The notes under the pieces: generated by a model | Told to the model about the DNA's origin: nothing | Database searches by the model: none | What the model saw: only the letters and a program-made list of their open reading frames with translations | From: the human T2T-CHM13v2.0 reference genome, Homo sapiens | Length of the DNA: 64,000 nucleotides | NCBI GenBank assembly: GCA_009914755.4 | Contig: CP068257.2 | Coordinates: 40,576,001 to 40,640,000, forward strand | Reading direction: 5' to 3' | Position numbers and translations under genes: made by a program | Shown: positions 15,126 through 54,804 of the stretch, piece by piece | How positions within the stretch are numbered: the first letter of the stretch is position 1 | Layout: each line of letters starts with the position of its first letter

Positions 15126-16671
15126 TTCACCTCACTTGCCACTATAAAGCCTGCCACCAGATGTAGCTTAACTGTCACTTGCCACTCACTGATAGGGTTT
15201 TGATACGTGTCTGCAAGCAGTTGATTTATTATGGTCTCTGTGCAGTCAAACCTCTCTGCCAATGTTAATCTGTATTTGCAGCCACTCCCCAGCACGAGCA
15301 CCAGCACCTCAGCTCCACCTTAGATCATCAGGCATTAGTTAGATTTAGATTCTCATTAGAAGCGTGCAACCTAGATCCCTTGAGTGCTCAGCTCACAATA
15401 GGGTTTTCACTCCTATGAGAGTCTAATGCCGCCACTGATCTGACAGGAGGGAGAGCTCAAGCCATAAAGCTCCCTCGCTTGCCGCTCACCTCCTGCTGTG
15501 TGGCCCCATTCCTAACGGGCCACGGACTGGTCTGCAGCCCAGGGGTTGGGGACTTGTCTTACATGACAGGGTGAGCTACCCTGAGTTAATCTGAGTGAGC
15601 TTCATTCTGTCGACCTTCTTCCACTCCACCACAGCGCTACACCAACCTGAACTTCGCTTCCTGAGACCTAAGATTCAGCCCCGTGCTCAGCAGACATCAG
15701 GGATCACCGACTCTGTGCCAGGAGCTGTTCTTGATGCTGGGAACGCAGGGGTGGACAAAACAGAGAAAGCCCTGCCCTCAGGTGTGGTCAGAAGAGACAG
15801 GGAAGGATTTGGAAGCTAAAGCTCAGATCCAGACTGGGCTTGTTTCAACTCGTTCCGTGGGCCTGATGTAGTCTAGAGATGATTCTTGGTGTGGGCTGTG
15901 GGAGCTCCTGCGGTGTAGTTTGGTGAGGGGCCAGCCCGAGGCAAACTGGGGACCTGTGTCTCCAACCTTCAGCACTTCTGCCCTTCAGGGTCATCCCTCC
16001 AGGTGCCCCACCCTGGGGACTTGAACTCTGCCCTTGTCCCCCAAACCACCTTACCCTAATGCTGTGGTTCTCCTGGTCCATGCAGGGCGCAGTGTCCTGC
16101 TGAGTGTGCAGGTGCCTGTCCCTGCCCTCTGCAATGTCATCTCCATGCAGCAGCAGCGTTTACCCACGGATGGATCCCCACCCCTGGACCATGCCTGGGT
16201 ACAGGTTTTGTTCCGGTTGGTCTGCTATTGAGTATGGAGGCCAGGGTTCCACTCCAGACCCCTCTGACTCCCCTCACCAGGCTGTTCCCAGAGACTTGTG
16301 AGGGAAGTTGACAATAAATATGTAAATTCAGATGGGTTTCATGTTAGTGAAAACCTGAATATTGAAATATTACAAACCTAGGGTTGAAGATCTCAGGCTG
16401 GTGGGAGTGCCTTTGTGCATGTATCCACCCACTTTTCCTTGCAGAACTTTCTACACAACAATTCAGCACAGGAAGCATGGAGGAGTAAAGCCATCTGGGG
16501 AGAGATGAGCAGTGAAAACCGGGGGCCGGCAGGTTAGAGGAGGGGTGTGATCTCAGGGTGCAACGCTGTTGAATGCACGCCTCCCTCCCCCCATCCCTCT
16601 CTCGGCAGCTCCCAGGCAACTTAGTCACCCCCATCTTAATCTTACTCAACAGTCACAACAGTCTCTCTCCC

Positions 16672-40015: not shown

Positions 40016-41892
40016 TGAAGGAGGCAACAGGTTGTTTGGGCAAAATCGGGGTCTGGAGGTTGAGAGGCTGAGCTTCTCTTCCCAACGCCGTCACTGCTGT
40101 GGTCAATTTATTCTATTGCTTTCTGCCTGAATTTTCCTCTCCTATAAAATGAACAGGTTGGATTTGGTGATCTCAAAGTTCATGGTTGCTCTGAAATTCT
40201 GCGATGTCATTATGGAGAATTTCACAAAGATTGACGGGTGTCAAAGTGTGCCTGTTTCTGGCATGTGCTGAGAGAGTCCTCTTTTGTGGATGCTGTTCAT
40301 GTCCATCTTTCAAGATGGAACTGTTTTTCAACCGCCCAGAGCAAAATGGGGGACAGGTGCCCCCCTCCCAAGCGTGAAGTGTTAAAAAGTGGCCAGTGAC
40401 CTAGACTGACCTCTCCAGAGACCCATCTTGAAAGGATTCTTTTGTGGGTGGTTGTGGTAGGCTAGAAAGAAAACTAAACTGTTGAAAAGAGCTGATACAT
40501 AAAAATAGAAAAAACAGAGAGGATAGAGCTCAGGAGGTGTCTGGAACGCCACACAGTGCAGGAGTTTGCCACTAGCTTGTTGCATGTTACAGGAAATTGA
40601 TGAGTGGTAGTTTGAGTTTTCTCAGCAACCTTCCCTAGCTCTAGAGTTTCACAGTTTGTGGAGTTAATGCCGCCCTGGGTTGGTGTGTTTTTTTCAAGCC
40701 TGATCTGTTTCTTCTGTGGAATTTATCCTTCATCTCCTTATGCTCCAAGCACTCATTGTCTGCTCCTAAGTGGATCAGACAGGTGGGTTGGGGGAGCTGA
40801 TAGGCAGAGGACGTGTCAGACTTCATCAAGAAACCATGGTCCCTAGTTTCTACTGAATCATGGAAAGCAATTTGAAAATCTGGGAGGACTTTGGAACAAT
40901 ACAAATGACTCAGGTACCCCTGGAATATGCTAATATTTTAGGACTTTGAACTTAAAACTGGATTCAGCCCTTCTTTCATTTTGAAGAAGACCAATCAAGA
41001 CTCACGTTTTAAATTTTCAGTTGTCTTTCTTCTTTTCCCTATTATCTTCTTTTTGTTTTTCTACCCTCTTGAAGCTAAGTCTTTGAGACCCTTAGCATGG
41101 GCAGTCCCATCTTCATTGTAATCACAATTTTAGAGCTTTGAAAGACTGGTCCCTGGGATCTGCAAGCCCAGTTGGTGGCTGGGTAACTGTATGTCTGTGT
41201 TTGCACAAGCAGAAACAGATTCAGTACCTTCTCAACAGACAACAGTATAGCACTGTGATGTGATACTTGCATTTTCAGAGCATACCAGCCTGTTCTGTTA
41301 AGAAAGCAGCTCTGTGGCAGGCTCAGATGTGGGCCCACTCCTTTGATCATGTTGAAATTTCAACATAGGGTTCTAGAATTCTCCTTCTCAACTTAAAGAA
41401 ATATTTTATAGAAAAATGTATCAAGAAACCAGGACACCGCGTCATGTTTTGGCGTCGTTTGTCTATATAGACAAATTATGGCAAAGCAGTGAGCAACATA
41501 GAGCGATTCCTGTCCGTCTGTTATGTGTGGCCTTGGAAATGTTGTCATGACAGTAGAAAATGCTGGGAAAGGTGTCTTGTAAAATGAAGATGGGTTGTAA
41601 TGCAGAAATGAAGACATCTGAAACCTGGTGGCATCTGGGTTTGAAATGTCTTGGCATAAGCCTGGCACACAGGTGTAGCCAGTGTTTGCAAGCAGTGAGT
41701 ATCGCTCCCCTACCCAGTGTGTTTGTCCATTTTCACACTGCTATAAAGAACTACCTGAGACTGGGTCATTTTTAAAGGAAAGAGGTTTAATTGGCTCACA
41801 GTTTGGCATGGTTGGGGAGGGCTCAGGAAACTTACAATCATGGCAGAAGGTGAAGGGGAAGCAAGGCATGTCTTACATGGTGGCATGGGGTG

Positions 41893-43935: not shown

Positions 43936-46900
43936 TTACAAAGACACTGGACCACTCCGGTTGTTTCCAGGAAAGACTTTTTCTCACATGATTTCCCCCA
44001 AAACATGGTGCTGCGATACAAACGCAACATACAACGCCCTAGCAAAGCTGAGCATTGTGACCAGAATAACTTTATGAAGTCCTACGTAATTATTTTAAAG
44101 AAGGAGAACTTCACAATCCTTACAAGAAAGGCGATGCGGGAAACAGTAGCGGCATTTTTAAGAAGAGATGCCAGGCACTGATTCTGTAAAACTTTTGAGC
44201 TTGACAGTTACTAAGCGTTGAATATGGCATTTTAACAAAACATCTTGTATTTTCAATTGTAGTTACATTTTCACCATATGACTAATGATGTCTTTGGAGG
44301 GAAAACTAGATCATATAATAGATTCCTAGCAGAAAACATAATTGTGAGAGGAACTATTCTCAGGAGAGAGGAGTACACCCCAAGGATAATTTCCCCGGCC
44401 TCGGATACAGTAATTACTCTCCCTCAAGGAATTCACTCACGTAGCTTGTGTTGATGGGACAAATGGCTCGGAACAATATCAGCTTTGGTGCTGTCACACA
44501 AACTGCGCTGGGGACAGATCAGAGTGATCTGGTTTATTTGTTCCTCCTCACCCTTAGGTGTGACTCTTTTGAAAGCAGCCTTTTCTTCCTACAGAGTAGA
44601 CACTATGTTGAGAACATTTAGGAATGTGGTTAAGAGTAAGTTCACAGAATAAAATTCTTCTTAGGTAAAGATGATGGGGATGAGCAGATTTTATCGTAAG
44701 CTGCTTTCAGAGCCCATTCACACAAGGGTCTCATTTTATTAGGGCGTGATTGGCCACAGTGAACAAATGGAATGCTTGGGTACTCGTACACTGCCCATCC
44801 CCCAGGAGATCCCGGCGGTTCCCACGCGTAGTTGACTGAATGATAGCCGTTCTTCAATCCATTTGGCTCATGGGGCCGATTCAGGAAGGATCTGCACATT
44901 CTTCCTGTGGAAACCTGTGACATGAGGCTCAGAGACGTGACCAAGGTCATAGGAGTGGGGAGGAAGGAACTCAGAACCAGGTCTGTGGGATTTCAGGCCA
45001 AAAAGGAGCGTAGCAAGTGCTTAGCTCTGACGTGGGCACAGGACTGGACCACCAAGGCACAGCTGTGCCTAGCCCCGTGTTATGAAATGGTGTGGGGTTG
45101 CCTTGGCTGTAAACTGATGTATTTTCCTTTTAATTGGCCTGCTTGGATGTCAGCGGCCATTGGCCATTTATAGGGATTTCCTGTCCCTCTGGAGAGGCTC
45201 CAGCTTCCCTCTTCTCACCAGGAAGGGGAGGCTGATGTGCATGGCGTGCTTTCTCTCCAACAGGTGAAGCGATTCTCAGAAATCAAATTTACCTCCCAAG
45301 ATTACCTTGAGGCGAAGTTCAGGTTGAGAACAAATGTAGTCATATCTGGGGCTTTAGAGCGTTTTCTTTCCTATCTGCAGTCAGGCCGTGGCCTCCACAT
45401 GGTGACGCTCTGATGGAATGGAATGTCGCCTCCTTCTTTGAAACCCAACCCTCCAGGCTCATCCTTGCCAAAAACCAGGAAGGGGTTAAATATTCCGGGC
45501 AGCGCCAAGTCAGATTATCTGTATTGGTTTGCTTCTACGCTATAAAAATGCATTTGGACACCTTTCTCAAATTCGGGGTTGCTTTCTCTTAATTTCTATA
45601 GCCATTTCACAAGGCCTGTAATGACAGGCCAGCTAAAGTGCATGGAAGGCATCATGAATAAATCCTTTCAGGAATTCCATTAAGGGAAGACTGGATTCCA
45701 ACCAAGTGCTAGTGACTTGATCCAACCTGCTAGAACAGGGAGGGGAGGCAGCCCGGTTAAAGGCAGAGTGTGGAGATCCTGTGGCTAGGGGTTTTGAGAG
45801 GGGCAGATGCTCAGGCTGAAGGGGGATGGATAGTTCCCTAGCATAAGTGAGTTACTTTTGTGCTTCTTTGAGGCTGTTGTGCTAAAGTGGGCTTTCTTGT
45901 GGGCCCACAGGACATTTCTTTTAGTCCTTTGCCTTTAATGGAGGTGACAGCTGACCCCTGGTGCAGTGTCGTGGCCCCAGGCCACTTGCAGGGATGGCTT
46001 GCTTGAGGCTGGGGCATTGACAAAGAGTCTGCCTTGGAGAATTCAGAGGACTGGAGAACCCTTCTCTTCCCCGCTGGGGCCAGTTCCTAGGTTCTCAGTG
46101 GCCCCCAGGTGGGTGGGCTACCACTCAGGCCCTGAGGGGTAGCACTCCTTTGGTGATGAGGTCTTCTGGAACAGTTCTGACCCCTCTGCCTTACAGGGCC
46201 CCAAAGAGGCTTTGAAAAAATTTTGAGAATGGACCAACTCTCACAGCAGATTCATGAGAGTTGAATGTTTAGCCGCCATGTGCAAGACCAAAGGGGTTTG
46301 CTACTTTCTTGGACAGGCTTCATATCCAAGGGGTCTAGATGCTCCCCTCCAGCCAGCACATTTTCTCCCTGTGAGCACGTTGCAAGGGAAACCAAACCCT
46401 CACCAGCTTGGGCCTGGGATCTGGGTGTGTGACTCCTTAGTGTGGCGTTGTTAGCGGTGGCAGCCTCCCTGGACAAGGCTCAGATGGCTCTGCCAACATT
46501 GGCCTTGGGGTCTGCTTTTCTCTTTGCCACCCTCAGATTGGCAGGTTCTTTATTTGGACATGTTAATACTTTGTCATTTTCCCAGAGAGTGCTCCTGTTC
46601 TTGAACCATCTGGCCCCTTCAGTGCAACTCTGTAGGACTGTGCTCTGCTCCGTGGGGGTTGGTGTCACTGTTTAACTGCTGGAGGATGTTCTTACCACAA
46701 TCGTTTTCACCTGCATGGTGGGTGCCCCCCTGCCTTCCTCTACTGCCTTGAATAGGCTTGTATCTTGAAAAGTTCACGTTCTCAAATGGAGGCCCTCCCT
46801 ATAAACCAGAACCTAATCCACCAGTCCAAGAAATCACCAAAGGTGACATTTTGCTGAACATGACACCGTTTCTTTTGTTTATAAATTGGCAGGAAGAAAA

Positions 46901-48779
46901 ATGTTTAGTAACCATACACCTGCTCTTTCTGAGTTCAGTTCTAGAATCAACAGATTAGCTATGAACAAAGAAAACCATGTGGGTCAGATTAAATATATCC
47001 TGAAGGACTAAACCGTAAAACTAGGGATTTGTCATGGAGGTGCATTCATCAAACTCAGTTGATGAAGTTCCAACACCTGCATAGGAAACTTACTCTCAAA
47101 TACAATGTACCCAGTGCCGACTGTTTTTGCTCACATTGTGAAAAAACGCAAAAAGATGGGTTTTCAGTCATGAGTGGTGGCGGGTGGGCCTGCAGGGATC
47201 CAGTCTGACCTGCAGCCAAGAGTTTCACTTCCCACTTTGTCAGCTGTGTGCTGTTTGTCACCTCCGTGCTCTGTGGGGTAAATGGCATTTGGTGTCAAAA
47301 GTAAGACACACCAGGGTGACTTCAGGGCTGTGATTACATCCAGCTGAGACCTATATTTAGAGTCCAAATCTTGGAGCCAAAAGGAGTCGTGCTGCCGTAG
47401 CCCGCCCTCCTGCCCCGTGGAGGGAGCCTTCTTGCACCATTTCTGACAAGGGACAGCCAGCTTCTGTCTGAGCACTTCCAGCAACCAGGAACTGACACCT
47501 CCCAGGCAGCCGGGCTATGTTTGCACAACCCTCATTCTTAGAAAATGCTTCTGTCTGTTGAGCTGCAATCTGTATTTGAGCAATGTTCATTTGTGGATCC
47601 AGGTTCTGTTTTTTGAAACTCCGTAGACCAAGTTAATCTTGGTCTTGAAATAAGCTCACAAATCAAGGGGAAAAGCCCAGCCAAGTACAGAACAATAACC
47701 AAATACATTACAATCCAGAGCTACCTTGAGAGGAGGAAATAAGAAGCACATGGCCCTTGCAGGAAATGAGGTCAGAGTCCTGCTTTGGGAGGTGGGCATC
47801 ACTGCGGCATCCGCAGGGTGCAGGTCAGTGGGCAGGCGCCCCTGCTGGAAGGTTCTTGCTGTCTGTAAACTGATAAGGGTGGAACCCGCTGGAAGGGCAG
47901 AACCTGAGTCACGTTCTTTCTGTTTCTTTTACTGTTATAAGGCAACTTGGTGCCTTCCAACCAAAAAAGTCCCCCTCTCTGATATCTCAACTGCCTGTCT
48001 TGAAAGTGAACCTTTTGGCAGGAGTTTTTATGGGATTTCTCAGTTGTTATTTCTCTCCTCCCACTGTTTTGGGAGAAGTGTTTTTTTTTGTTGTTGTTGT
48101 TTTAATTAAAAATAACTGGTGTTTACTGAGCAAATCGTGTTTGCTTTATTTGGCGCTTTGCCTCATTAAGCCTTTGGGGAGCAGCATGGGACACACATCA
48201 GTATGGGCATCTTCTCCAGAAGGGAAGGAGGGTGGAGGGGGAACGAGGGCCTGCCCAGGACCGCTGGCAGGTAGGGGGCAGGTCCAGGACTGGACTTAAC
48301 ACCTGGAGTCCCAACTCCCTGCCTCTATAAGCGCCACTGAGAACTCATCTCTTTGCAATCGCTCAGACCCAGATAATAAAATAAGCTGGGTTGAGTTTTC
48401 CTTACCCAAGACATAAACCCCAAACCCTGCTGACAATGAGGAGCTACAAAAGGCCTCTCCTCCTCCTGGGGCACGTGTTCCGGGAATTCTTTCATGGATG
48501 CAGGTATGGGGGCATCTTTGGCCTCTGTCCTTTGTCTGGAGCTCCCCGCACCTGGCTGGGGGCTGCACTGGACACCTCTGCCCACCCTGGCCCTGGGGTT
48601 ATCAGGCCACCTGGCCTCCACCCAGACGTTCCCTCCCAGGGCGGGATTCATCCTGGCCCGTGGTGATGTGCAGGCTCCCGGAAGGCCGGGCTCTGCCCAC
48701 TAAGTGTCAGCTCTAACGCAGGCTCTCCATACTGAGTAAAAAAGCCCGTCCTTTCTCTGGCTGGTGCAGGTGCTGACTC

Positions 48780-49420
48780 TGCAGGCCTGTGGACGCAGGG
48801 TGACGTTCGCGCTCTTGCCCGAGCTCAACGCCCGGGAGAAAACAGCGCTGCCGGAGCCCCTCGCGCGCGCAGGTGCGGGCGGGGCGGGTGCGCGCTGCCG
48901 CGCGTGTGCAGCGCCCGCCCATCCGCCGCCACCGCCCGCGCCGGGGTTACTACCGGTCAACGCTCGCTAGTAACCTCCGCGGCGGAGCGGCGGCGCGGGG
49001 AGCGGCGCGATTGGCTGCGGGCGCCCCGCGCTGTTGCCAAGCGCGAGGAGGCAGCTGCAGCCCCGAGCGGGGTCGCAGCCTCCCTGGGACAGGGGCGGCC
49101 CTATGCATAGGGGATCACCCGGGCCATGCAAATCCCGGCGCCCCGCGCGTGCTGGTGTTCTCCTCCCCAGGTCCAGGAACACCGGTCCAGGAAGCCTGAG
49201 AGCGCTGGCAGTAGGAAGGGTCGCCAGTGTGGACCTGAGGGTGGAGGTGTTGCCACCCGGGGCGGCCTGCGCTCCATTCAGGCTTGAGCGGTGACTGGGA
49301 GACCCCGGGAATGGAAATGGCGCTCAAATGCTGGTGTGGTGTCCGCAGGGGAACGGCCCGCGGGTGTGTGGAGTCTGCGCCCCTGTGGCTTCAGCTGCGT
49401 CGGGGGACTGCGGGAATCTT
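48780..49420. promoter_or_regulatory. ABCG1: Second, intragenic CpG island in the intron downstream of the NASSYSAE exon. It is a candidate internal promoter or alternative first exon.
   Basis: About 640 bp of dense CpG (gcgcgcgcaggtgcgggcggggcgggtgcgcgctgccgcgcg…). Candidate GT donors lie at its 3' edge: cggcccgcgg|gtgtgtgg at about 49366 and aatcagagag|gtgtgtcc at about 49446. Confidence 0.75.
48944..48959 (-). promoter_or_regulatory. DR4 nuclear-receptor element GGGTTActacCGGTCA, LXRE-A-like, inside the intragenic CpG island
   Basis: The minus-strand reading is TGACCGgtagTAACCC, against the published ABCG1 LXRE-A as I remember it, TGACCGatagTAACCT. That is 14 of 16 matches. The site is embedded in a 32-bp inverted repeat GGTTACTA-n16-TAGTAACC (48945..48976). 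Confidence 0.5.
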
Positions 49421-52400
49421 CCAGACTCCAGTTTAAATCAGAGAGGTGTGTCCACGAAAAGAGTCAAACTAAAACATTTAAAGAGATTTATCCTGAGTGA
49501 CCATGGCCCGTGACACAGCCTCAGGAGACCAGGAGAACACGTGCCCAAAGGGGTCGGGAACAGCTTGGTTTCATACTTTTAGGGAGACGTAAGACAGTGA
49601 TCAATATTTAAGATGTACATTGGTTCCGTCTAGAAAGGTGGGACAGCCCAAAGGGGGACTTCCAGGTTATAGGTAAATTTAAATTTTTTTCTAATTGGTT
49701 AAGTTATTATCGATAGAAAGGGATGTCTGGGTTACGATACGGGGCTGTGGGGACCTAGGTTGTATCATGCGGATGAGGCCTCCAGGCAGCAGGCTTGAGA
49801 GAGAACAGACTGTAAATGCTTCGTATCAGACTTAAGGTCTGTGTTGATGTTAATGTTACAGGCTACGATAAGGCATGTCAGACGGACCGCCACTTCCCGT
49901 CATGGCCTGAACCAGTCTTTCAGGGGAAATTTTAGAGTGCCCTGGCCAAGGAGGGAGTCCATCCCCATGGTTCAGGGGGCCTTTGAATTTTATTTTTGAT
50001 TTACAGGTCTTTACTTCAGGTGGCACAATTTTCCTAGGAGACAGTTGATTTTTGATTCCTTATAAAACGTGCTGGTTTTGTTTTTAGCTGACAGTGTGGG
50101 GTGAAGCTGTAAGGGAGCCAGGGCCTCCTGGGGTTGATCCAAGCATGTCTGAGCCTTCTCTGGGGTCAGCACTGAAAAGTGGCCAGGGTGGGGTTTGGAA
50201 CCTTGGAATTGCCCTTGGGAATCTGCAGCGTTGGCTCCGCTAAGCCGGCTGGAATCCGGAGATCATGCGGCAAGGTCACGCTTCCCGGCTGCCTGCCGAG
50301 TCACTTCTACCCTAGGCAGGTTAGAGGCAAGGACAGATGACAGCTGAACTTTACGGAGTGTTTTCCAGGGCATCTATTACAGTTTTGTGTGTGTGAACCC
50401 AAAAGTGTGATAACAAACATCATTTCCATCAGCTGTACTGTGTTTGAGTATCCGCAAGGCCTGGGGCCACCTCAGTGGAGTCGGAGGTGCCACGCTTTGC
50501 TGTCTCTGGAGACCAGGGCCTTCTCTAGACACCCGGCGGGACTAGTTCCTTTGGGCATAATTTAGGTGTTTTGTGAAATGTTAAACATTGTCTTTCAGAC
50601 GCTTTGCTCAACCTTTTGGGCTCCTGACCAAATGCAAAGAGACCCAAGGGCTTGCTTTTCCTTGCACTCTTGGGTTTTCATTGCCTGCTTGCTTATTTGA
50701 TTTTGTGACTGTGGAGCTGGCATTTCTGTAAGCCCATATAGAAATTACAGTTTCCAAGCCTAAACCCACTAAGCCAACAGGGGCACACAGGAAACCAGAG
50801 ATGGTGGTGGATGAAAACCTTTGCAACAAGAAGGAAGGGTACATCTATGATAACTATGGTGTTACATTACTAAAAACAGTAAGGATGAGTGTCACTAACA
50901 TGAGAATGTACTCTACACAAAAGTCTGGTGAAAAAGGGAGGAGCCCTTTCACTAAGTTTCATATTTATCAGCACTCACGTTAAGAATTACAGCAGAAGCT
51001 GCAGGTTTCCTGTTTCTGAAGACCTGCGAATGAGTTTGTCCAGAAAATGGCCGTGTCCTGAATGGTGTGAGCAGGAGGCCATCCAGCCTTGTGCCTCTAG
51101 GCCTCCTCCCCTTCAGTTGTCATAAATGTGCCATGTGCCCCTGCCCAAACCCAGCAGCCTTTCTCTGAATTTCATCTGGTTTAGAGAGGAAAATGGGCAG
51201 CATCATTTTGTCACCTTCTCTCTTCCCAGGGGCGTTCTGTGCTTCTTGAGAACTATACCTCAATATCTGAGTTGGCTAAGTCTCTAGAATATGAATTTCA
51301 AAGAGCTTAGCCTGGCCAGCAGGGCTCTCTTGGAGCCCTTTTTCTCTCCCAGCCCTGCGTCTCCGCAGCCACTCCCCATGGGCTAGCCAGGCTGAACTGC
51401 CAGTCATTCTAGCATTTGTGCTTTCTTTGGGCCACTCTCTCTACCAAGAACCCACCTCATCTCCCCAGGCTAGGGGAAGCCTTCCTTCATTCACCCTTAA
51501 CCCTGTGGCCAGGAGAGTCTTTCTTGGTTACTCTTCGTACTCCTCTGCCCCTACGATCATGGGATTATGGCACTCAGCATGGGATTTTGTGCTTCTCTTC
51601 TGAGCTTCCAAAATTACCCCTGCGTCTCAGCTGCCCAGCCAGTGCCTGGCTCAGAGCTGGCATGCAAATGAATGAATGGAATCACAAAAAGCTAAATCAC
51701 AGTAGAAGAGCCTATACTTTTACCCTCAAAGACAGCTTGGTAGAGAGGAGAAGTAGAGAGGAAAACCAAGAGCCTTGAGATGCTGGGCTGTTTTGATCTT
51801 CCCTTGCTGTGTCAAACCCATGAGCCACCTCTGACTAAGCTTCACGCAGGTGGTTTCTGAGGGCTGTTTCTTTGGCCGCACAGCACCGTGGATGGACAGA
51901 GGGGTGGCTGGGGAATGGTAAGAGCCTGGATTCTGGGTCAAGCAGCCTACTCTTGAATGCCAGCTCCACCTCTTCTTAACCATGTGACCCTGGGCCTCAG
52001 TTTTTGCATCTGCAGAACAGGGCTGATCCAAGTGCCAAACTCAGGATTGGAGTGAGGAATAGCAGAGGTCATCACTACAGCCAGGGCTGGCACACAATAG
52101 TGCTCAAGGTATTTTAATGTTACAGGTCAAATTTTGCTAAAAATTGATTTTCGTGTTCCTGGTTTCATGAAGGCAAATACTCCTCTTTCTAATAATAATA
52201 GTATTAGCTTGGTATTTATTAGTCTGTGAGCAGTAACTTACTCTGTCTTCACAGCAACCCTGCGGTCAGGTTTTCTACCCATTCTTTTTGAGGGAGGAAG
52301 ATGCTGTGGCCGGAAGCAGTGAGGGCCTTTGCTTGGGCATCACAGAGAGTGCCATCTCTTACACAAAATGGGGATTTCGAATCTCAACACTCTGAGCTCT

Positions 52401-54511
52401 GTGCTTTCCCCCAAGACAGGCTACATGCTCCCTGGAGTTGTCCTCCAAGAGAATCTTTGTATGGTTCCTTTTCTGAGACTTCTGGTTTCTTCCTCATGGC
52501 TCATATTATGACTAATTTCAGACGCGTTAAATCCCTCTATCTTGAGACTTGTGTACTTGCGTGTACAAGACAGGTAACAGTCTTATTATTTCTGAGAGAT
52601 CTCTCAAGTACTTTCAGATCGCTGGATGACAAGCTTTGCATCTTTGAACTATTTATATTTCAGTATCTACATTTGTGAGTTACTGGATGGAAATTTCCAC
52701 CATTCAAACAAAGCTTGGCAAGCAACATTACACTTCAGAATTTGGCTCACGGGCGAGGTTGATGCAGGTTATCTTAGGAGGATGTGAGATGTTATCAGCT
52801 CCTGCGTGTTTTAGTCTTGTGGCTAGATGGTCATGACTGAAAATTGAGGATGTTGTGCCCACTGCTCTGGTTGGCAGCTCGTGGCAGGGAGAGGTGGCAG
52901 CAGCTCTGGGGTTGGTGGGAGCCACAGTCTCACACCTATTGGCAGGTCGTGAACATTGTTCTTGGATTTGCAAATATTTAATGTAAATCCATTAATGTTG
53001 TAGCTTTATAGAAAATGCACTTACTCTCCTTTGTGGTAATTCTAAATTAATATGTAACAAGGAGGTTAAGATGAATTGAACTATATGTGGAGCTTAGTTA
53101 AAATTTTCTTTCTCCCGCTATTTCTTTCAAAAAAATGATTCCAGGTGTAGTACTTGTTAGCAAAATGCCCTCAGTAAAGGAGGAGGCAGTATAGGATAGA
53201 GCTCAGGAATGTGGGCTCCACAGTAAGAGAGTCTGGGTTCAGAATTGGCTCCACCGCCTACTAGCAGGGCAACTGGGTGACTTACCCCTCCTGTGAAAAG
53301 GAAATATTAATAATAAAAATATCCATCTTATTAGATCAAATAGCTTGATACCTGTGAAGCACTGTGACCAGCTTGTGGCACTTAATAAACCATGGCTACC
53401 CTTCTTATATGTGATGTAATAAAATCATAATAGCTTAGAATCACTAAGATGGATCAAAGCCTTTTAGTTCTCATTCTAAATGTGAAGTGTGGCTTGATAC
53501 CTTAGGCTTTAGAAATGAAAGGGAAAGAGCAAGGGTATAGTTGGTGGCCACTGTTGATTTAGTGTTTCCTAGGCGCCGGGCAGTGTGCTCAGAGCCTCAC
53601 ACCTATGTGCTCCCATGAGCCTCATTGCTGCCCTTTGAGAGTGGAGGGGCAAGGGGAGGTGTAGGGGCCTGGTCCGGGGTCACAGGGCTGTAAGTAGCAG
53701 AGCCAAGAGGTGACCCAGGTAGCTGCTTCCAGAGCCCCACACTGGTCCCCTGGCTGGGCTACATCTTACCTTTGTGTGTCTTTGGTGACCCATGCTCCTA
53801 GAGCCAGCTTCCGGTTGGGGCAGAAGACCGTCCGGGGCCTGGCCCCTGGCTAATACGATGGCTACTGCTCATCTGCTCTGTGTCGTAGATGCTCACATCA
53901 CTTGGGTGATGAGCCTTTGTCACGTGGCCTCTGCAGAATCAGCTAGCTGGGCAAGGGGCCTAAGCTCCGGAAGGTTCCCCTTTGGTCATTTTTGGGTGTC
54001 TGGTGATTGCCAGGCTTCCAGTATCTCACCACTCAAATTAGAGCCCCAGAAAGGGAGCATGGTGTCATTTCATCCCCTGGGCCGTGGTTGTGGGAGCCCA
54101 TGGTGCCTTCTGCAGGGCACTGGAGAACGCTGTGTGTGCTCATCTTGGGACAGGCAGGAGAGGAGGGCAGGTGGCAGGATGAGGGCGGCTGTAGCCTGCA
54201 GGTCACACAGTGTTATGCCAGACCACGGTGCCTGCCACGCTGGGTCTCCAACGGCCACACGAGGCACTGCTTCCATGTTATCAGTGAGGAAACTGTGGCC
54301 TGGAGACAGGTGGGCGATGAGTTCAAGTTCCTGCTGCCAACAGGTGGACCCCAGGACCAAGCCTAGCCCAGTTGACCCCTGGCTCCTCCTGTTTGCTCTT
54401 TGAGATCATATGAAACAGCCAGTGACTGCCTAGGGCCATGGCCCTTTTCAGTGAACTTGAAACATTAAAATGTTTACTGCCTTCACACTTATGGCTTAAA
54501 AAGTTGTTTGG

Positions 54512-54804
<293 letters not shown>

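What the first reader, a model, noticed from the sequence alone, without database searches (positions are those of the whole stretch)
48780..49450. An intragenic CpG island about 15.5 kb downstream of promoter B, likely an internal ABCG1 promoter or alternative first exon
This is a second dense CpG island (about 640 bp, gcgcgcgcaggtgcgggcggggcgggtgcgcgctgccgcgcg…). It sits in the intron after the NASSYSAE exon, far from any other exon in the window. Candidate GT donors at its 3' edge are gcgg|gtgtgtgg at about 49366 and agagag|gtgtgtcc at about 49446. They could terminate a non-coding or short-ORF first exon. ABCG1 is known to use several internal promoters, including an LXR-activated one. The adjacent DR4 element, described separately, fits that picture. 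Separately, I recall that intragenic ABCG1 CpGs in this general intron are among the most replicated blood EWAS signals for triglycerides, HDL, BMI and type 2 diabetes, array probe cg06500161 being one example. I cannot place any probe from the sequence alone. The island and its 3' shore (about 49.4-50.6 kb) are the obvious candidates.
Basis: partly seen in the sequence, partly recalled or inferred. Interest (0 to 1): 0.55.

Follow-up and report, generated by a model that had tools for sequence, protein, structure and literature searches.

The report
Conserved ABCG1 intronic CpG island
This is a real CpG island inside an intron of the human cholesterol-exporter gene ABCG1, with a mammal-conserved core that looks like a sterol-receptor (LXR)-responsive control element, and the well-known blood methylation marker cg06500161 lies 1.1 kb downstream of it; no evidence was found that it begins a conserved alternative exon.

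Summary
Window 48780-49450 is a 671-bp CpG island (70% G+C, CpG obs/exp 0.91 against 0.29 for the window). It lies in the human ABCG1 intron after the NASSYSAE exon. Published pyrosequencing primers place cg06500161 at C50534, in the 3' shore, and cg02370100 inside the island. The island corresponds to about hg19 chr21:43,654,833-43,655,503.

I recovered orthologous DNA from a tamarin and four non-primate mammalian contigs. All have a CpG island at this position. All share a core of about 190 bp (48860-49046) containing a GC box, an LXRE-type DR4 (RGGTTA-n4-CGGTCA), an invariant 26-bp block, an inverted CCAAT box at fixed spacing, and GCGCTGTTGC. The DR4 half-sites are identical to the SREBP-1c LXR probe, and the element matches the ABCA1 LXRE at 14 of 16 positions.

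The 3' half of the island is not conserved outside primates. That half holds both proposed GT donors and the only in-frame ORF. No database protein carries that ORF's N-terminus.

Best reading: a conserved, promoter-like, probably LXR/RXR-responsive regulatory module in an orphan CpG island. A spliced alternative first exon is not supported. No TSS, chromatin or ChIP data could be consulted, so enhancer versus weak promoter stays open. Interest is modest.

The parts
48780..49450 (.). Intragenic CpG island in ABCG1 intron 2 (about hg19 chr21:43,654,833-43,655,503; GRCh38 42,234,723-42,235,393)
   Evidence: 671 bp, GC 0.705, 75 CpG, o/e 0.91. Coordinates derive from primer and probe anchors. Orthologous islands exist in the tamarin (L002 19501-20050, o/e 0.92), L007, L018, L019 and L020.
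48860..49046 (.). Conserved core of the island (about 190 bp)
   Evidence: Human-L007 identity is 70% over the core including a 23-bp gap, and 76-83% in the sub-blocks. It is 31% over 49047-49450. Core CpG o/e is 0.99-1.29 in all six species.
48877..48888 (+). Tandem GC boxes (GGGCGGGGCGGG, Sp1-type)
   Evidence: Motif scan. GCGGGCGGGGC is kept in human, tamarin and L007, and varies in L018-L020.
48895..48913 (.). Conserved GC-rich palindrome-like block (ctGCcGCGCGTGtGCAGcg; TGCGC-n2-GCGCA in non-primates, NRF1-like by my reading)
   Evidence: Invariant columns in alignment A3. The assignment to a factor is inference only.
48944..48959 (+). LXRE-type DR4, GGGTTActacCGGTCA; the 3' half-site begins with a CpG (48954/5)
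   Evidence: Only match to RGGTTAnnnnCGGTCA in 64 kb, with 0 of 100 shuffles giving any match. Two mismatches from the ABCA1 LXRE. Half-sites identical to the SREBP-1c LXR EMSA probe TGACCGccagTAACCC. Half-sites are conserved and the spacer varies across six sequences; L018 has CGGTTA.
48960..48985 (.). Near-invariant block AAyGCTCGCnnGTAACCTCnGCGGC, containing an inverted AGGTTA half-site (GTAACCTC, 48970-48977)
   Evidence: The 50-bp gap-free block around the DR4 is 39-44/50 identical in the four non-primates. No covariation supports a hairpin.
49010..49017 (-). Inverted CCAAT box (ATTGGCTG, which reads CAGCCAAT on the minus strand; NF-Y-type)
   Evidence: Present in all six sequences. It lies exactly 48 bp after the DR4 start in the four non-primates and 66 bp in both primates.
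49028..49037 (.). Invariant GCGCTGTTGC (GTTGCY; RFX X-box-like half-site by my reading)
   Evidence: Present in all six, 16 bp after the CCAAT box in non-primates and 18 bp in primates. The factor assignment is inference.
49203..49204 (.). CpG of array probe cg02370100, inside the island
   Evidence: GRCh38 42,235,147 in PMC7308584 maps to this CpG.
49328..49445 (+). Only ORF that is open from an ATG to a phase-1 donor (MLVWCPQGNGPRVCGVCAPVASAASGDCGNLPDSSLNQR|G); judged a chance ORF
   Evidence: Enumeration. The ATG is GTG in the tamarin, with 13-bp and 9-bp indels. No database protein carries it.
49364..49369 (+). Candidate donor 1, CGG|GTGTGT (not supported as functional)
   Evidence: PWM score 3.42, 97th percentile of GTs. 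Kept in the tamarin, with no counterpart in non-primates.
49446..49451 (+). Candidate donor 2, GAG|GTGTGT (not supported as functional)
   Evidence: PWM score 4.70, equal to the genuine NASSYSAE-exon donor at 4.77. It is CAA|GTCTGT in the tamarin and absent in non-primates.
50534..50538 (.). cg06500161 (C50534) and the neighbouring CpG at 50537 (hg19 43,656,590), in the 3' shore of the island
   Evidence: Pyrosequencing primers and analysed sequence from PMC6902418 Table S4 map uniquely to 50458-50629 on the minus strand. The top fine-mapped T2D CpG is at 43,656,590. The flanks are 74-78% conserved, but the CpGs are decayed in non-primates.

Best explanation
The feature is a conserved intragenic ('orphan') CpG island in the second intron of the main human ABCG1 transcript.

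Its working part is a core of about 190 bp (48860-49046). The core packs together a GC box, a nuclear-receptor DR4 of the LXRE type (GGGTTActacCGGTCA), a 26-bp invariant block with an inverted AGGTTA half-site, an inverted CCAAT box at fixed distance, and GCGCTGTTGC.

I propose the following mechanism. LXR/RXR binds the DR4. Constitutive CpG-island factors (Sp1-type and NF-Y-type) keep the island open and unmethylated. The module then acts as a sterol-responsive intronic enhancer for the ABCG1 promoters. Like many orphan islands, it may initiate some unstable sense transcription, but it does not provide a conserved spliced first exon. The less CpG-dense shores either side vary in methylation with the activity of this module and of the gene. 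That is why the replicated blood EWAS CpGs (cg06500161, cg01176028, cg01881899) flank it.

Shown here: the island, its position, its conservation, the motif content, and the probe placement.

Inferred: which proteins bind, LXR responsiveness, the enhancer role, and the causal link to shore methylation.
For: - CpG island statistics.
- ABCG1 identity and intron position.
- Orthologous CpG islands at the syntenic position in the tamarin and in four non-primate contigs.
- The core is much better conserved than its surroundings. The 50-bp DR4 block is 78-88% identical without gaps in the non-primates. Neighbouring intron blocks are 65-72% identical with gaps. The 3' half of the island is about 31% identical to L007, mostly gaps.
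- In the DR4, the half-sites are conserved while spacer positions 3-4 vary (ac, cc, ct, ac, cc, tt).
- The pattern RGGTTAnnnnCGGTCA occurs once in 64 kb and never in 100 shuffles.
- The half-sites are identical to the SREBP-1c LXR EMSA probe. The element matches the ABCA1 LXRE at 14 of 16 positions.
- ABCG1 is an established LXR target with DR4 elements. Two other DR4 LXREs lie upstream in the same window, and one matches a published oligo exactly.
- The CCAAT box and GCGCTGTTGC are present in all six sequences at fixed spacing.
- cg06500161 methylation correlates inversely with ABCG1 expression.
Against: - No binding, chromatin, CAGE or reporter data for this island could be reached. Kennedy 2001 and Sabol 2005 are not held. 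The LXR ChIP-seq supplements held give no peak coordinates.
- Scored against AGGTCA x2, the DR4 is only 9/12. It was recognised after the fact by resemblance to known LXREs.
- Conservation extends well beyond the DR4, so another factor could explain the constraint.
- L018 has CGGTTA in the 3' half-site.
- The four non-primate contigs are of unidentified species and fall into two similarity groups (L007/L020 and L018/L019). Independent lineages may number as few as two plus primates.
- No rodent sequence reached the island.
- Plus-strand GC skew turns positive from about 49200. Together with the promoter-like motif set, this fits a true promoter equally well.
Confidence: 0.55

Rival explanations
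1. The island is a genuine third (internal) ABCG1 promoter. Its first exon is spliced from a donor at about 49364 or 49446 to the YKTLLKG exon. This would give a non-coding 5' leader or an N-terminally different protein.
For: - The motif set resembles a CpG-island promoter: GC boxes and an inverted CCAAT box with no TATA.
- Positive plus-strand GC skew begins about 150-200 bp after the CCAAT box, much as it does downstream of the promoter-B first exon.
- Donor 49446 scores 4.70, equal to the genuine NASSYSAE-exon donor at 4.77.
- One ORF (ATG 49328 to 49445) ends in phase 1 and would join the next exon in frame.
- From memory of Kennedy 2001, ABCG1 uses several promoters and has minor exons in this intron. 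I could not check this.
Against: - Donors of this strength make up 1-3% of all GTs, so about one per 700 bp is expected.
- The whole donor and ORF region has no counterpart in four non-primate contigs.
- In the tamarin the ATG is GTG, indels break the frame, and donor 2 is CAA|GTCTGT.
- No protein with this N-terminus exists among 5.8 billion clusters, whether spliced or read through.
- The remembered alternative ABCG1 N-termini map upstream at 15734 and 30214, not here.
- Array annotation of cg06500161 is 'Body', not TSS.
Confidence: 0.25
2. The island is the promoter of a separate non-coding transcript (sense or antisense lncRNA, or bidirectional enhancer RNA), independent of ABCG1 protein output.
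For: Orphan CpG islands commonly start non-coding transcripts (general knowledge). Moderately scoring minus-strand donors exist at 48551 and 48405. The conserved core sits in the middle of the island, so it could drive either direction.
Against: No Rfam family matches. Nothing in the literature I could reach mentions such a transcript; the only lncRNA described near ABCG1 lies 3' of the gene. No conserved splice signals were found on either side.
Confidence: 0.1
3. The island is a conserved CpG island that serves as a Polycomb, CTCF or other architectural element, with no role for LXR. On this view the DR4 resemblance is fortuitous, and the constraint reflects other factors such as NF-Y, RFX-like or NRF1-like proteins.
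For: Conservation is as strong in the 26 bp after the DR4 and around the CCAAT/GCGCTGTTGC blocks as in the DR4 itself. One species has a variant 3' half-site.
Against: No CTCF core motif occurs in 48600-49600. The DR4 shows the half-site-conserved, spacer-variable pattern. Its half-sites exactly match a validated LXR site in a gene of the same pathway. The host gene is a classic LXR target.
Confidence: 0.08
4. The island is a neutral by-product (for example GC-biased gene conversion or a decayed repeat), or the inverted repeat encodes a structured RNA or DNA hairpin.
For: GGTTACTA...TAGTAACC can pair, with a consensus fold of -21.7 kcal/mol.
Against: Motif-level conservation across six sequences with fixed spacing. 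The island is single-copy. The covariation term is only -0.33, with one compensatory pair and two breaks. The fold z-score is -0.97, and 36 of 200 shuffles fold as well. No Rfam hit.
Confidence: 0.02

Closest known systems
SREBF1c (SREBP-1c) proximal promoter LXRE module
   Same: The DR4 has the same two half-sites: TGACCG-n4-TAACCC in the EMSA probe of PMC3909891, and TGACCGgtagTAACCC on the minus strand here. From my memory of the SREBP-1c promoter literature, its LXREs also sit beside Sp1 and NF-Y sites in a GC-rich, TATA-less context, which is the combination seen here.
   Different: The SREBP-1c element lies directly upstream of a documented TSS. The element here is 15.5 kb inside the gene, with no documented TSS. 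The spacer sequence differs. LXR binding here is untested.
ABCA1 promoter LXRE (TGACCGatagTAACCT)
   Same: 14 of 16 positions are identical. It has the same orientation logic (AGGTTA-n4-CGGTCA), the same CpG at the start of the 3' half-site, and belongs to the same LXR-driven cholesterol-efflux pathway.
   Different: The ABCA1 element sits in a proximal promoter; from memory, about 50-70 bp upstream of the TSS near a TATA-like box. The ABCG1 island has no TATA and no known TSS.
Published intronic ABCG1 LXREs (LXRE-A and LXRE-B of Sabol et al. 2005, as summarised in PMC8707585)
   Same: Same gene and same kind of element: DR4 sites in introns downstream of promoter B that activate ABCG1. Two such DR4s are in the window at 34444-34459 and 40397-40412. 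The first matches a published oligo exactly. The second is kept in the tamarin, the mole and L003.
   Different: The island DR4 is a third site, 8.5 kb further into intron 2, embedded in a CpG island with CCAAT and GC boxes. Its 16-mer and flanks were not found for ABCG1 in about 8 million full texts. I could not read Sabol 2005 or Kennedy 2001 to confirm that it is unreported.
Orphan (intragenic) CpG islands (Illingworth et al. 2010; reviewed in PMC5927659, which I did not read in detail)
   Same: CpG island away from the annotated TSSs, conserved between mammals, with promoter-like sequence content.
   Different: Orphan islands are defined operationally by an unmethylated state, H3K4me3 and initiation in some tissue. 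None of these could be checked here.

Membership tests
CpG island (Gardiner-Garden & Frommer; Takai & Jones) | Length >=200 bp (>=500 bp), G+C >=50% (>=55%), CpG obs/exp >=0.6 (>=0.65) | tested here: met
   671 bp, 70.5% G+C, o/e 0.91.
CpG island (Gardiner-Garden & Frommer; Takai & Jones) | Not a CpG-rich repeat (Alu, SVA or similar) | tested here: met
   No second copy in the 64-kb window. By contrast, the small 'island' at 57901-58150 is repeat-like.
LXR response element (DR4) | Two RGKTCA-like hexamers as a direct repeat with a 4-nt spacer | tested here: met
   GGGTTA ctac CGGTCA at 48944-48959. It scores 9/12 against AGGTCA x2, but its half-sites are identical to the validated SREBP-1c LXRE, and it matches the ABCA1 LXRE at 14/16.
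LXR response element (DR4) | Evolutionary conservation of half-sites and spacing | tested here: met
   Six sequences have RGGTTA-n4-CGGTCA; L018 has CGGTTA. The spacer is always 4 nt and its last two bases vary.
LXR response element (DR4) | Binding of LXR/RXR (EMSA or ChIP) and agonist-dependent activation | not testable with these tools
   No ChIP peak coordinates were available. The primary papers are not held.
Promoter / alternative first exon of ABCG1 | Mapped transcription start (CAGE, 5'RACE or cDNA) and promoter chromatin (H3K4me3) | not testable with these tools
   No expression or chromatin resource was available. Literature searches found nothing for this island.
Promoter / alternative first exon of ABCG1 | A functional, conserved splice donor ending the first exon | tested here: not met
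   The donors at 49364 and 49446 are ordinary in strength for the window (97th-99th percentile of GTs). They have no counterpart in the non-primates, and donor 2 degrades in the tamarin.
Promoter / alternative first exon of ABCG1 | A protein isoform whose N-terminus is encoded here | tested here: not met
   The only phase-compatible ORF (49328-49445) has no match among 5.8 billion protein clusters, and its ATG is lost in the tamarin.
NF-Y CCAAT box | CCAAT pentanucleotide with favourable flanks, conserved in position | tested here: met
   CAGCCAATCG on the minus strand at 49008-49017. ATTGGCTG is present in all six sequences at fixed spacing from the DR4. NF-Y binding itself is not testable.
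Orphan CpG island | Lies away from annotated TSSs | tested here: inconclusive
   Array annotation of cg06500161, the shore probe next to the island, is 'Body'/'S Shore'. The remembered alternative first exons map elsewhere. Current GENCODE models could not be consulted.
Orphan CpG island | Unmethylated, with H3K4me3 or initiation in at least one tissue | not testable with these tools
   Only the shore probe's methylation was found, at about 60% in blood.
cg06500161 EWAS locus | The probe CpG lies within 2 kb 3' of this island | tested here: met
   Primers and analysed sequence map to 50458-50629. The CpG is C50534, 1,084 bp from 49450.

The most novel reading that the evidence does not exclude
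The island core may be a previously undescribed third LXRE module of ABCG1 that is methylation-sensitive. The CpG that begins the DR4's 3' half-site (cCGGTCA, conserved in all six sequences) and the surrounding CpG-dense sites could gate LXR/RXR access. On this reading the module also fires as a cryptic LXR-driven internal promoter. The replicated EWAS signals in its shores (cg06500161 and neighbours) would then read out how active this one element is. That would give a concrete cis-mechanism linking lipid and insulin state, ABCG1 expression and type 2 diabetes risk.
Probability: 0.15. Interest if true: 0.6.

Novelty: new member of a known kind. Interest (0 to 1): 0.35.

Why it matters
cg06500161 and its neighbours are among the most replicated blood methylation markers for triglycerides, HDL, BMI, insulin resistance and future type 2 diabetes. 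The regulatory element they report on is usually described only as 'gene body' or 'intronic enhancer'.

This analysis shows that the adjacent island has a compact, conserved core with an LXRE-type DR4 next to CCAAT and GC boxes. That gives a specific 190-bp target for ChIP, reporter, methylation-editing and CRISPR experiments. If LXR does bind there, ABCG1 would have a third LXR element, and the EWAS signal would have a plausible cis-mechanism.

The island itself and the EWAS association are already known, and the element is of a familiar kind, so the surprise to a specialist is limited.

Tried and rejected
1. Rfam scan of the whole window: no hits.
2. Primary gene-structure papers (Kennedy 2001 JBC; Sabol 2005 JLR): not held. 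I therefore could not check whether their minor exons or LXREs coincide with the island.
3. Literature searches for a TSS, chromatin state or reporter test of this island, and the papers read from them: nothing specific to the island.
4. LXR ChIP-seq supplements (PMC3295715): only gene-level flags and qPCR primers, no peak coordinates. The supplements of the fine-mapping preprint are not held.
5. Strict DR4 scan (>=10/12 matches to AGGTCA x2): nothing within +/-5 kb of the island. The island DR4 emerged only when compared with real LXREs.
6. Star-nosed mole locus L001: 61% assembly gaps, so useless for the island.
7. Bird locus L017: only the exon aligns.
8. Rodent-like contig L009: ends about 500 bp short of the island.
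9. Contigs L003, L010, L011 and L016: extend upstream, not downstream.
10. Metagenome DNA scans: the DR4 pattern gave 0 hits. The CCAAT pattern gave one hit, L008, a GC-rich contig with no other resemblance to the human region, rejected as a chance match.
11. The exact 16-mer TGACCGGTAGTAACCC appears in a mouse promoter construct printed in PMC6156289: an unrelated locus, treated as coincidence.
12. Hairpin or structured-RNA reading of the inverted repeat: no covariation and a non-significant fold energy.
13. Coding first exon: the only phase-compatible ORF has no database protein. The higher-coverage hits are intronic read-through ORFs at the next exon's acceptor.
14. The octamer ATGCAAAT at 49126 and the YY1-like AAATGGCG at 49315: human- or primate-only, so not taken as functional.


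Full report
**What is there.**
Window 48780-49450 is a CpG island. It is 671 bp long, 70.5% G+C, with 75 CpGs and CpG observed/expected 0.91. The 64-kb window as a whole is 48% G+C with observed/expected 0.29. A sliding-window scan finds only two large islands: 32851-34150 and 48651-49450. The island is single-copy in the window. No Rfam family matches anywhere in the window.

**Which locus.**
The window carries MACLMAAFSVGTAM at 33320-33361 and NASSYSAE...WWRKKG at 39728-39973, both 100% identical to the human ABCG1 protein as I recalled it. No further ABCG1 coding exon is detectable downstream. The NASSYSAE exon ends at 39971 in phase 1, with donor AAG|GTAGGG. The island therefore sits in the intron after that exon.

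**Anchoring to the reference genome and to the array probes.**
The pyrosequencing assay for cg06500161 in PMC6902418 (Table S4) maps uniquely to the minus strand at 50458-50629. The analysed sequence TTYGTYGGG... covers the CpGs at 50534 and 50537.
- The fine-mapping preprint PMC11844604 reports its top CpG at hg19 chr21:43,656,590, 3 bp from cg06500161 at 43,656,587. This fixes cg06500161 at C50534.
- With that offset, the published GRCh38 positions of cg02370100, cg01176028, cg01881899 and cg05639842 all fall on CpGs, at 49203, 47181, 46651 and 33387 (+/-1 bp).
- The island is about hg19 chr21:43,654,833-43,655,503.
- cg06500161 lies 1,084 bp 3' of it, which agrees with its 'S Shore' annotation.
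- cg02370100 lies inside the island.

**Comparative data.**
None of the tools holds mammalian genomes directly, so I reached orthologous DNA through proteins.
- A search with the spliced N-terminal peptide, followed by contig look-ups, gave a tamarin locus (L002, NCBI GCA_031835075.1) and an unidentified non-primate contig (L007) that carries the exon and 10 kb downstream.
- A profile of the reading frame that happens to be open across the island core retrieved three spurious 'proteins' bearing the core signature. These led to three more contigs: L018, L019 and L020.
- All of these align to the human intron on one or both sides of the island at 65-72% identity (87.6% for the tamarin).
- Every one has a CpG island at the syntenic place. 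For the tamarin, L018, L019 and L020 the o/e values are 0.92, 0.83, 0.85 and 0.75; for L007 they are 0.66-0.68.
- The four non-primate contigs fall into two similarity groups (L007/L020 and L018/L019). They therefore represent at least two lineages besides primates.
- A mole locus was mostly gaps, a bird locus aligned only at the exon, and a rodent-like contig stopped about 500 bp short of the island.

**What is conserved.**
Conservation is concentrated in a core at human 48860-49046. The core contains, in order:
- a GC box (GCGGGCGGGGC);
- a GC-rich palindrome-like block;
- a DR4;
- a nearly invariant 26 bp, AAyGCTCGCnnGTAACCTCnGCGGC;
- an inverted CCAAT box (ATTGGCTG, which reads CAGCCAAT on the minus strand);
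- GCGCTGTTGC.

The DR4 reads as follows in the six sequences:

| Sequence | DR4 |
|---|---|
| human | GGGTTActacCGGTCA |
| tamarin | GGGTTActccCGGTCA |
| L007 | AGGTTActctCGGTCA |
| L018 | AGGTTActacCGGTTA |
| L019 | GGGTTActccCGGTCA |
| L020 | AGGTTActttCGGTCA |

The half-sites are held while the last two spacer bases drift. The DR4-to-CCAAT distance is exactly 48 bp in all four non-primates and 66 bp in both primates, which share an 18-bp GC-rich insertion. The CCAAT-to-GCGCTGTTGC distance is 16 bp in non-primates and 18 bp in primates. The 50-bp block around the DR4 is gap-free and 78-88% identical to human in the non-primates.

By contrast, human 49047-49450 is about 31% identical to L007, mostly gaps. 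BLAST aligns nothing between about 49050 and 50110 in any non-primate. The octamer at 49126 and the YY1-like site at 49315 are primate- or human-only.

**Why I call the DR4 LXRE-type.**
- Scored against AGGTCA x2 it reaches only 9/12.
- On the minus strand it reads TGACCGgtagTAACCC. The LXR EMSA probe from the SREBP-1c promoter is TGACCGccagTAACCC, so both half-sites are identical.
- The ABCA1 promoter LXRE is TGACCGatagTAACCT, a 14/16 match.
- The pattern RGGTTAnnnnCGGTCA occurs once in the window and in none of 100 shuffles.
- ABCG1 is a classic LXR target with DR4 elements.
- Two further DR4s lie upstream in the window. AGGTAActgtCGGTCA at 34444-34459 matches a published ABCG1 LXRE oligo over all 26 bases. 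A perfect AGGTCAgtctAGGTCA lies at 40397-40412 and is retained in the tamarin, the mole and L003.
- Neither the island DR4 nor its flanks appear for ABCG1 in the roughly 8 million full texts searched. The one exact hit is in an unrelated mouse promoter construct.

**The alternative-first-exon idea.**
I scored donors with an approximate 5' splice-site weight matrix; the values are recalled from textbooks, so this is a rough tool. The proposed donors score 3.42 (49364) and 4.70 (49446). The genuine donors score 6.4 and 4.77. The proposed donors are therefore respectable. However, they rank only at the 97th and 98.9th percentile of the 3,397 GTs in the window, so roughly one such site is expected per 700 bp.

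Both donors lie in the non-conserved half of the island. Donor 2 becomes CAA|GTCTGT in the tamarin.

Because the upstream exon ends in phase 1, a coding first exon must do the same. Exactly one substantial ATG-to-donor combination qualifies. It runs from 49328 to 49445 and encodes MLVWCPQ...NQR|G, which would join G|YKTLLKG in frame (the downstream exon sequence was seen). Its ATG is GTG in the tamarin, and 13-bp and 9-bp indels break the frame. A search with the chimeric junction peptide found only proteins matching the YKTLLKG half. The higher-coverage hits are intronic read-through ORFs. The alternative ABCG1 N-termini I remembered (MLGTQGW..., MIMRLPQ...) map upstream at 15734 and 30214. 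I conclude that a conserved spliced or coding first exon is not supported.

**Promoter or enhancer?**
The sequence alone cannot decide.
- For a promoter: the GC box plus CCAAT motif set with no TATA, and plus-strand GC skew that turns positive about 150-200 bp after the CCAAT box, much as it does after the promoter-B first exon.

I could not reach any CAGE, histone, ChIP or reporter data for the island. My best explanation (confidence 0.55) is a conserved, promoter-like, probably LXR/RXR-responsive cis-regulatory module in an orphan CpG island. It would act mainly as an intronic enhancer, possibly with some non-productive initiation. The true-internal-promoter reading keeps about 0.25.

**Other rivals.**
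The inverted repeat in the core can fold. However, almost all pairs are invariant, the covariation term is -0.33, and the fold energy is ordinary (z = -0.97). A structural RNA or DNA element is therefore unlikely. No CTCF core motif is present. A neutral origin is excluded by the motif-level conservation and fixed spacing.

**The shores.**
The sequence around cg06500161 (50483-50587) is 74-78% identical in three non-primates, above the local background. The two CpGs themselves are TpG/CpA or shifted in those species. The 5'-shore probes cg01881899 and cg01176028 lie in or next to blocks conserved even in the rodent-like contig. cg06500161 is about 60% methylated in blood, and its methylation correlates inversely with ABCG1 expression. 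That shore methylation tracks the activity of the island module is my inference, not a result.

**Novelty and interest.**
The island is already annotated: the array's 'S Shore' label presupposes it. The EWAS association is very well known. What may be new is the conserved LXRE-type DR4, CCAAT and GC-box module as a candidate third LXR element of ABCG1. That is a new member of a known kind. It is useful as a precise experimental target but not surprising in principle. Interest 0.35.

Noticed in passing
window 40397-40412 (-): Perfect DR4 AGGTCAgtctAGGTCA about 430 bp 3' of the NASSYSAE exon. It is retained in the tamarin (AGGTCAgtttAGGTCG), the mole (CGGTCActcgAGGTCA) and L003 (AGGTTActatAGGTCA). 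It is probably one of the published intronic ABCG1 LXREs. The exact 16-mer was not found in the searched literature.
   Followed up: partly
window 34439-34464 (-): Exact 26-base match to the ABCG1 LXRE oligo gcaagAGGTAACTGTCGGTCAaatcc listed in PMC1868778. It lies about 1.1 kb 3' of the MACLMAAFSVGTAM exon.
   Followed up: yes
window 11937, 19432, 25713, 54732: Four near-identical DR4-like sites (G/AGATCACCTGAGGTCA). The sequence looks Alu-derived; this assignment is from memory. They inflate naive DR4 counts in this locus.
   Followed up: no
window 15734 (+) and 30214 (+): ORFs encoding MLGTQGWTKQRKPCPQ and MIMRLPQPHGT, which I remember as alternative ABCG1 N-termini. Both lie upstream of promoter B, showing that the window also holds the upstream alternative first exons.
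   Followed up: no
window 57901-58150 and 54509-54803: The small 'CpG island' at 57.9 kb is repeat-like. It and 54.5 kb both align to the same two places in the tamarin locus at 72-83% identity.
   Followed up: partly
window 50483-50587: The cg06500161 neighbourhood is 74-78% identical in three non-primate contigs. However, both CpGs (50534, 50537) are decayed or shifted there, so the marker CpGs themselves are primate-lineage features.
   Followed up: yes
window 46598-47662: Non-coding blocks in the 5' shore (46598-46675, 46755-46995, 47214-47662) are conserved at 70-77% even in the rodent-like contig L009. The probes cg01881899 (46651) and cg01176028 (47181) lie in or beside them.
   Followed up: partly
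window 49050-50110: This stretch covers the 3' half of the island plus an AT-rich segment at 49450-50050. It has no BLAST-alignable counterpart in any non-primate contig. Those contigs have about 550-650 bp here instead of about 1,100, suggesting a primate-lineage insertion or rapid turnover.
   Followed up: no
window 48986-49007: Both primates share an 18-bp GC-rich insertion (GGAGCGGCGGCGCGGGGAGC-like) between the DR4 block and the CCAAT box. It changes a spacing that is otherwise fixed at 48 bp to 66 bp.
   Followed up: partly
L008 421-449: The only metagenome contig matching the CCAAT/GCGCTGTTGC pattern is a GC-rich contig with no other similarity to the human region. It is a chance match, and shows that a 23-base degenerate pattern can hit by accident in that collection.
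   Followed up: yes
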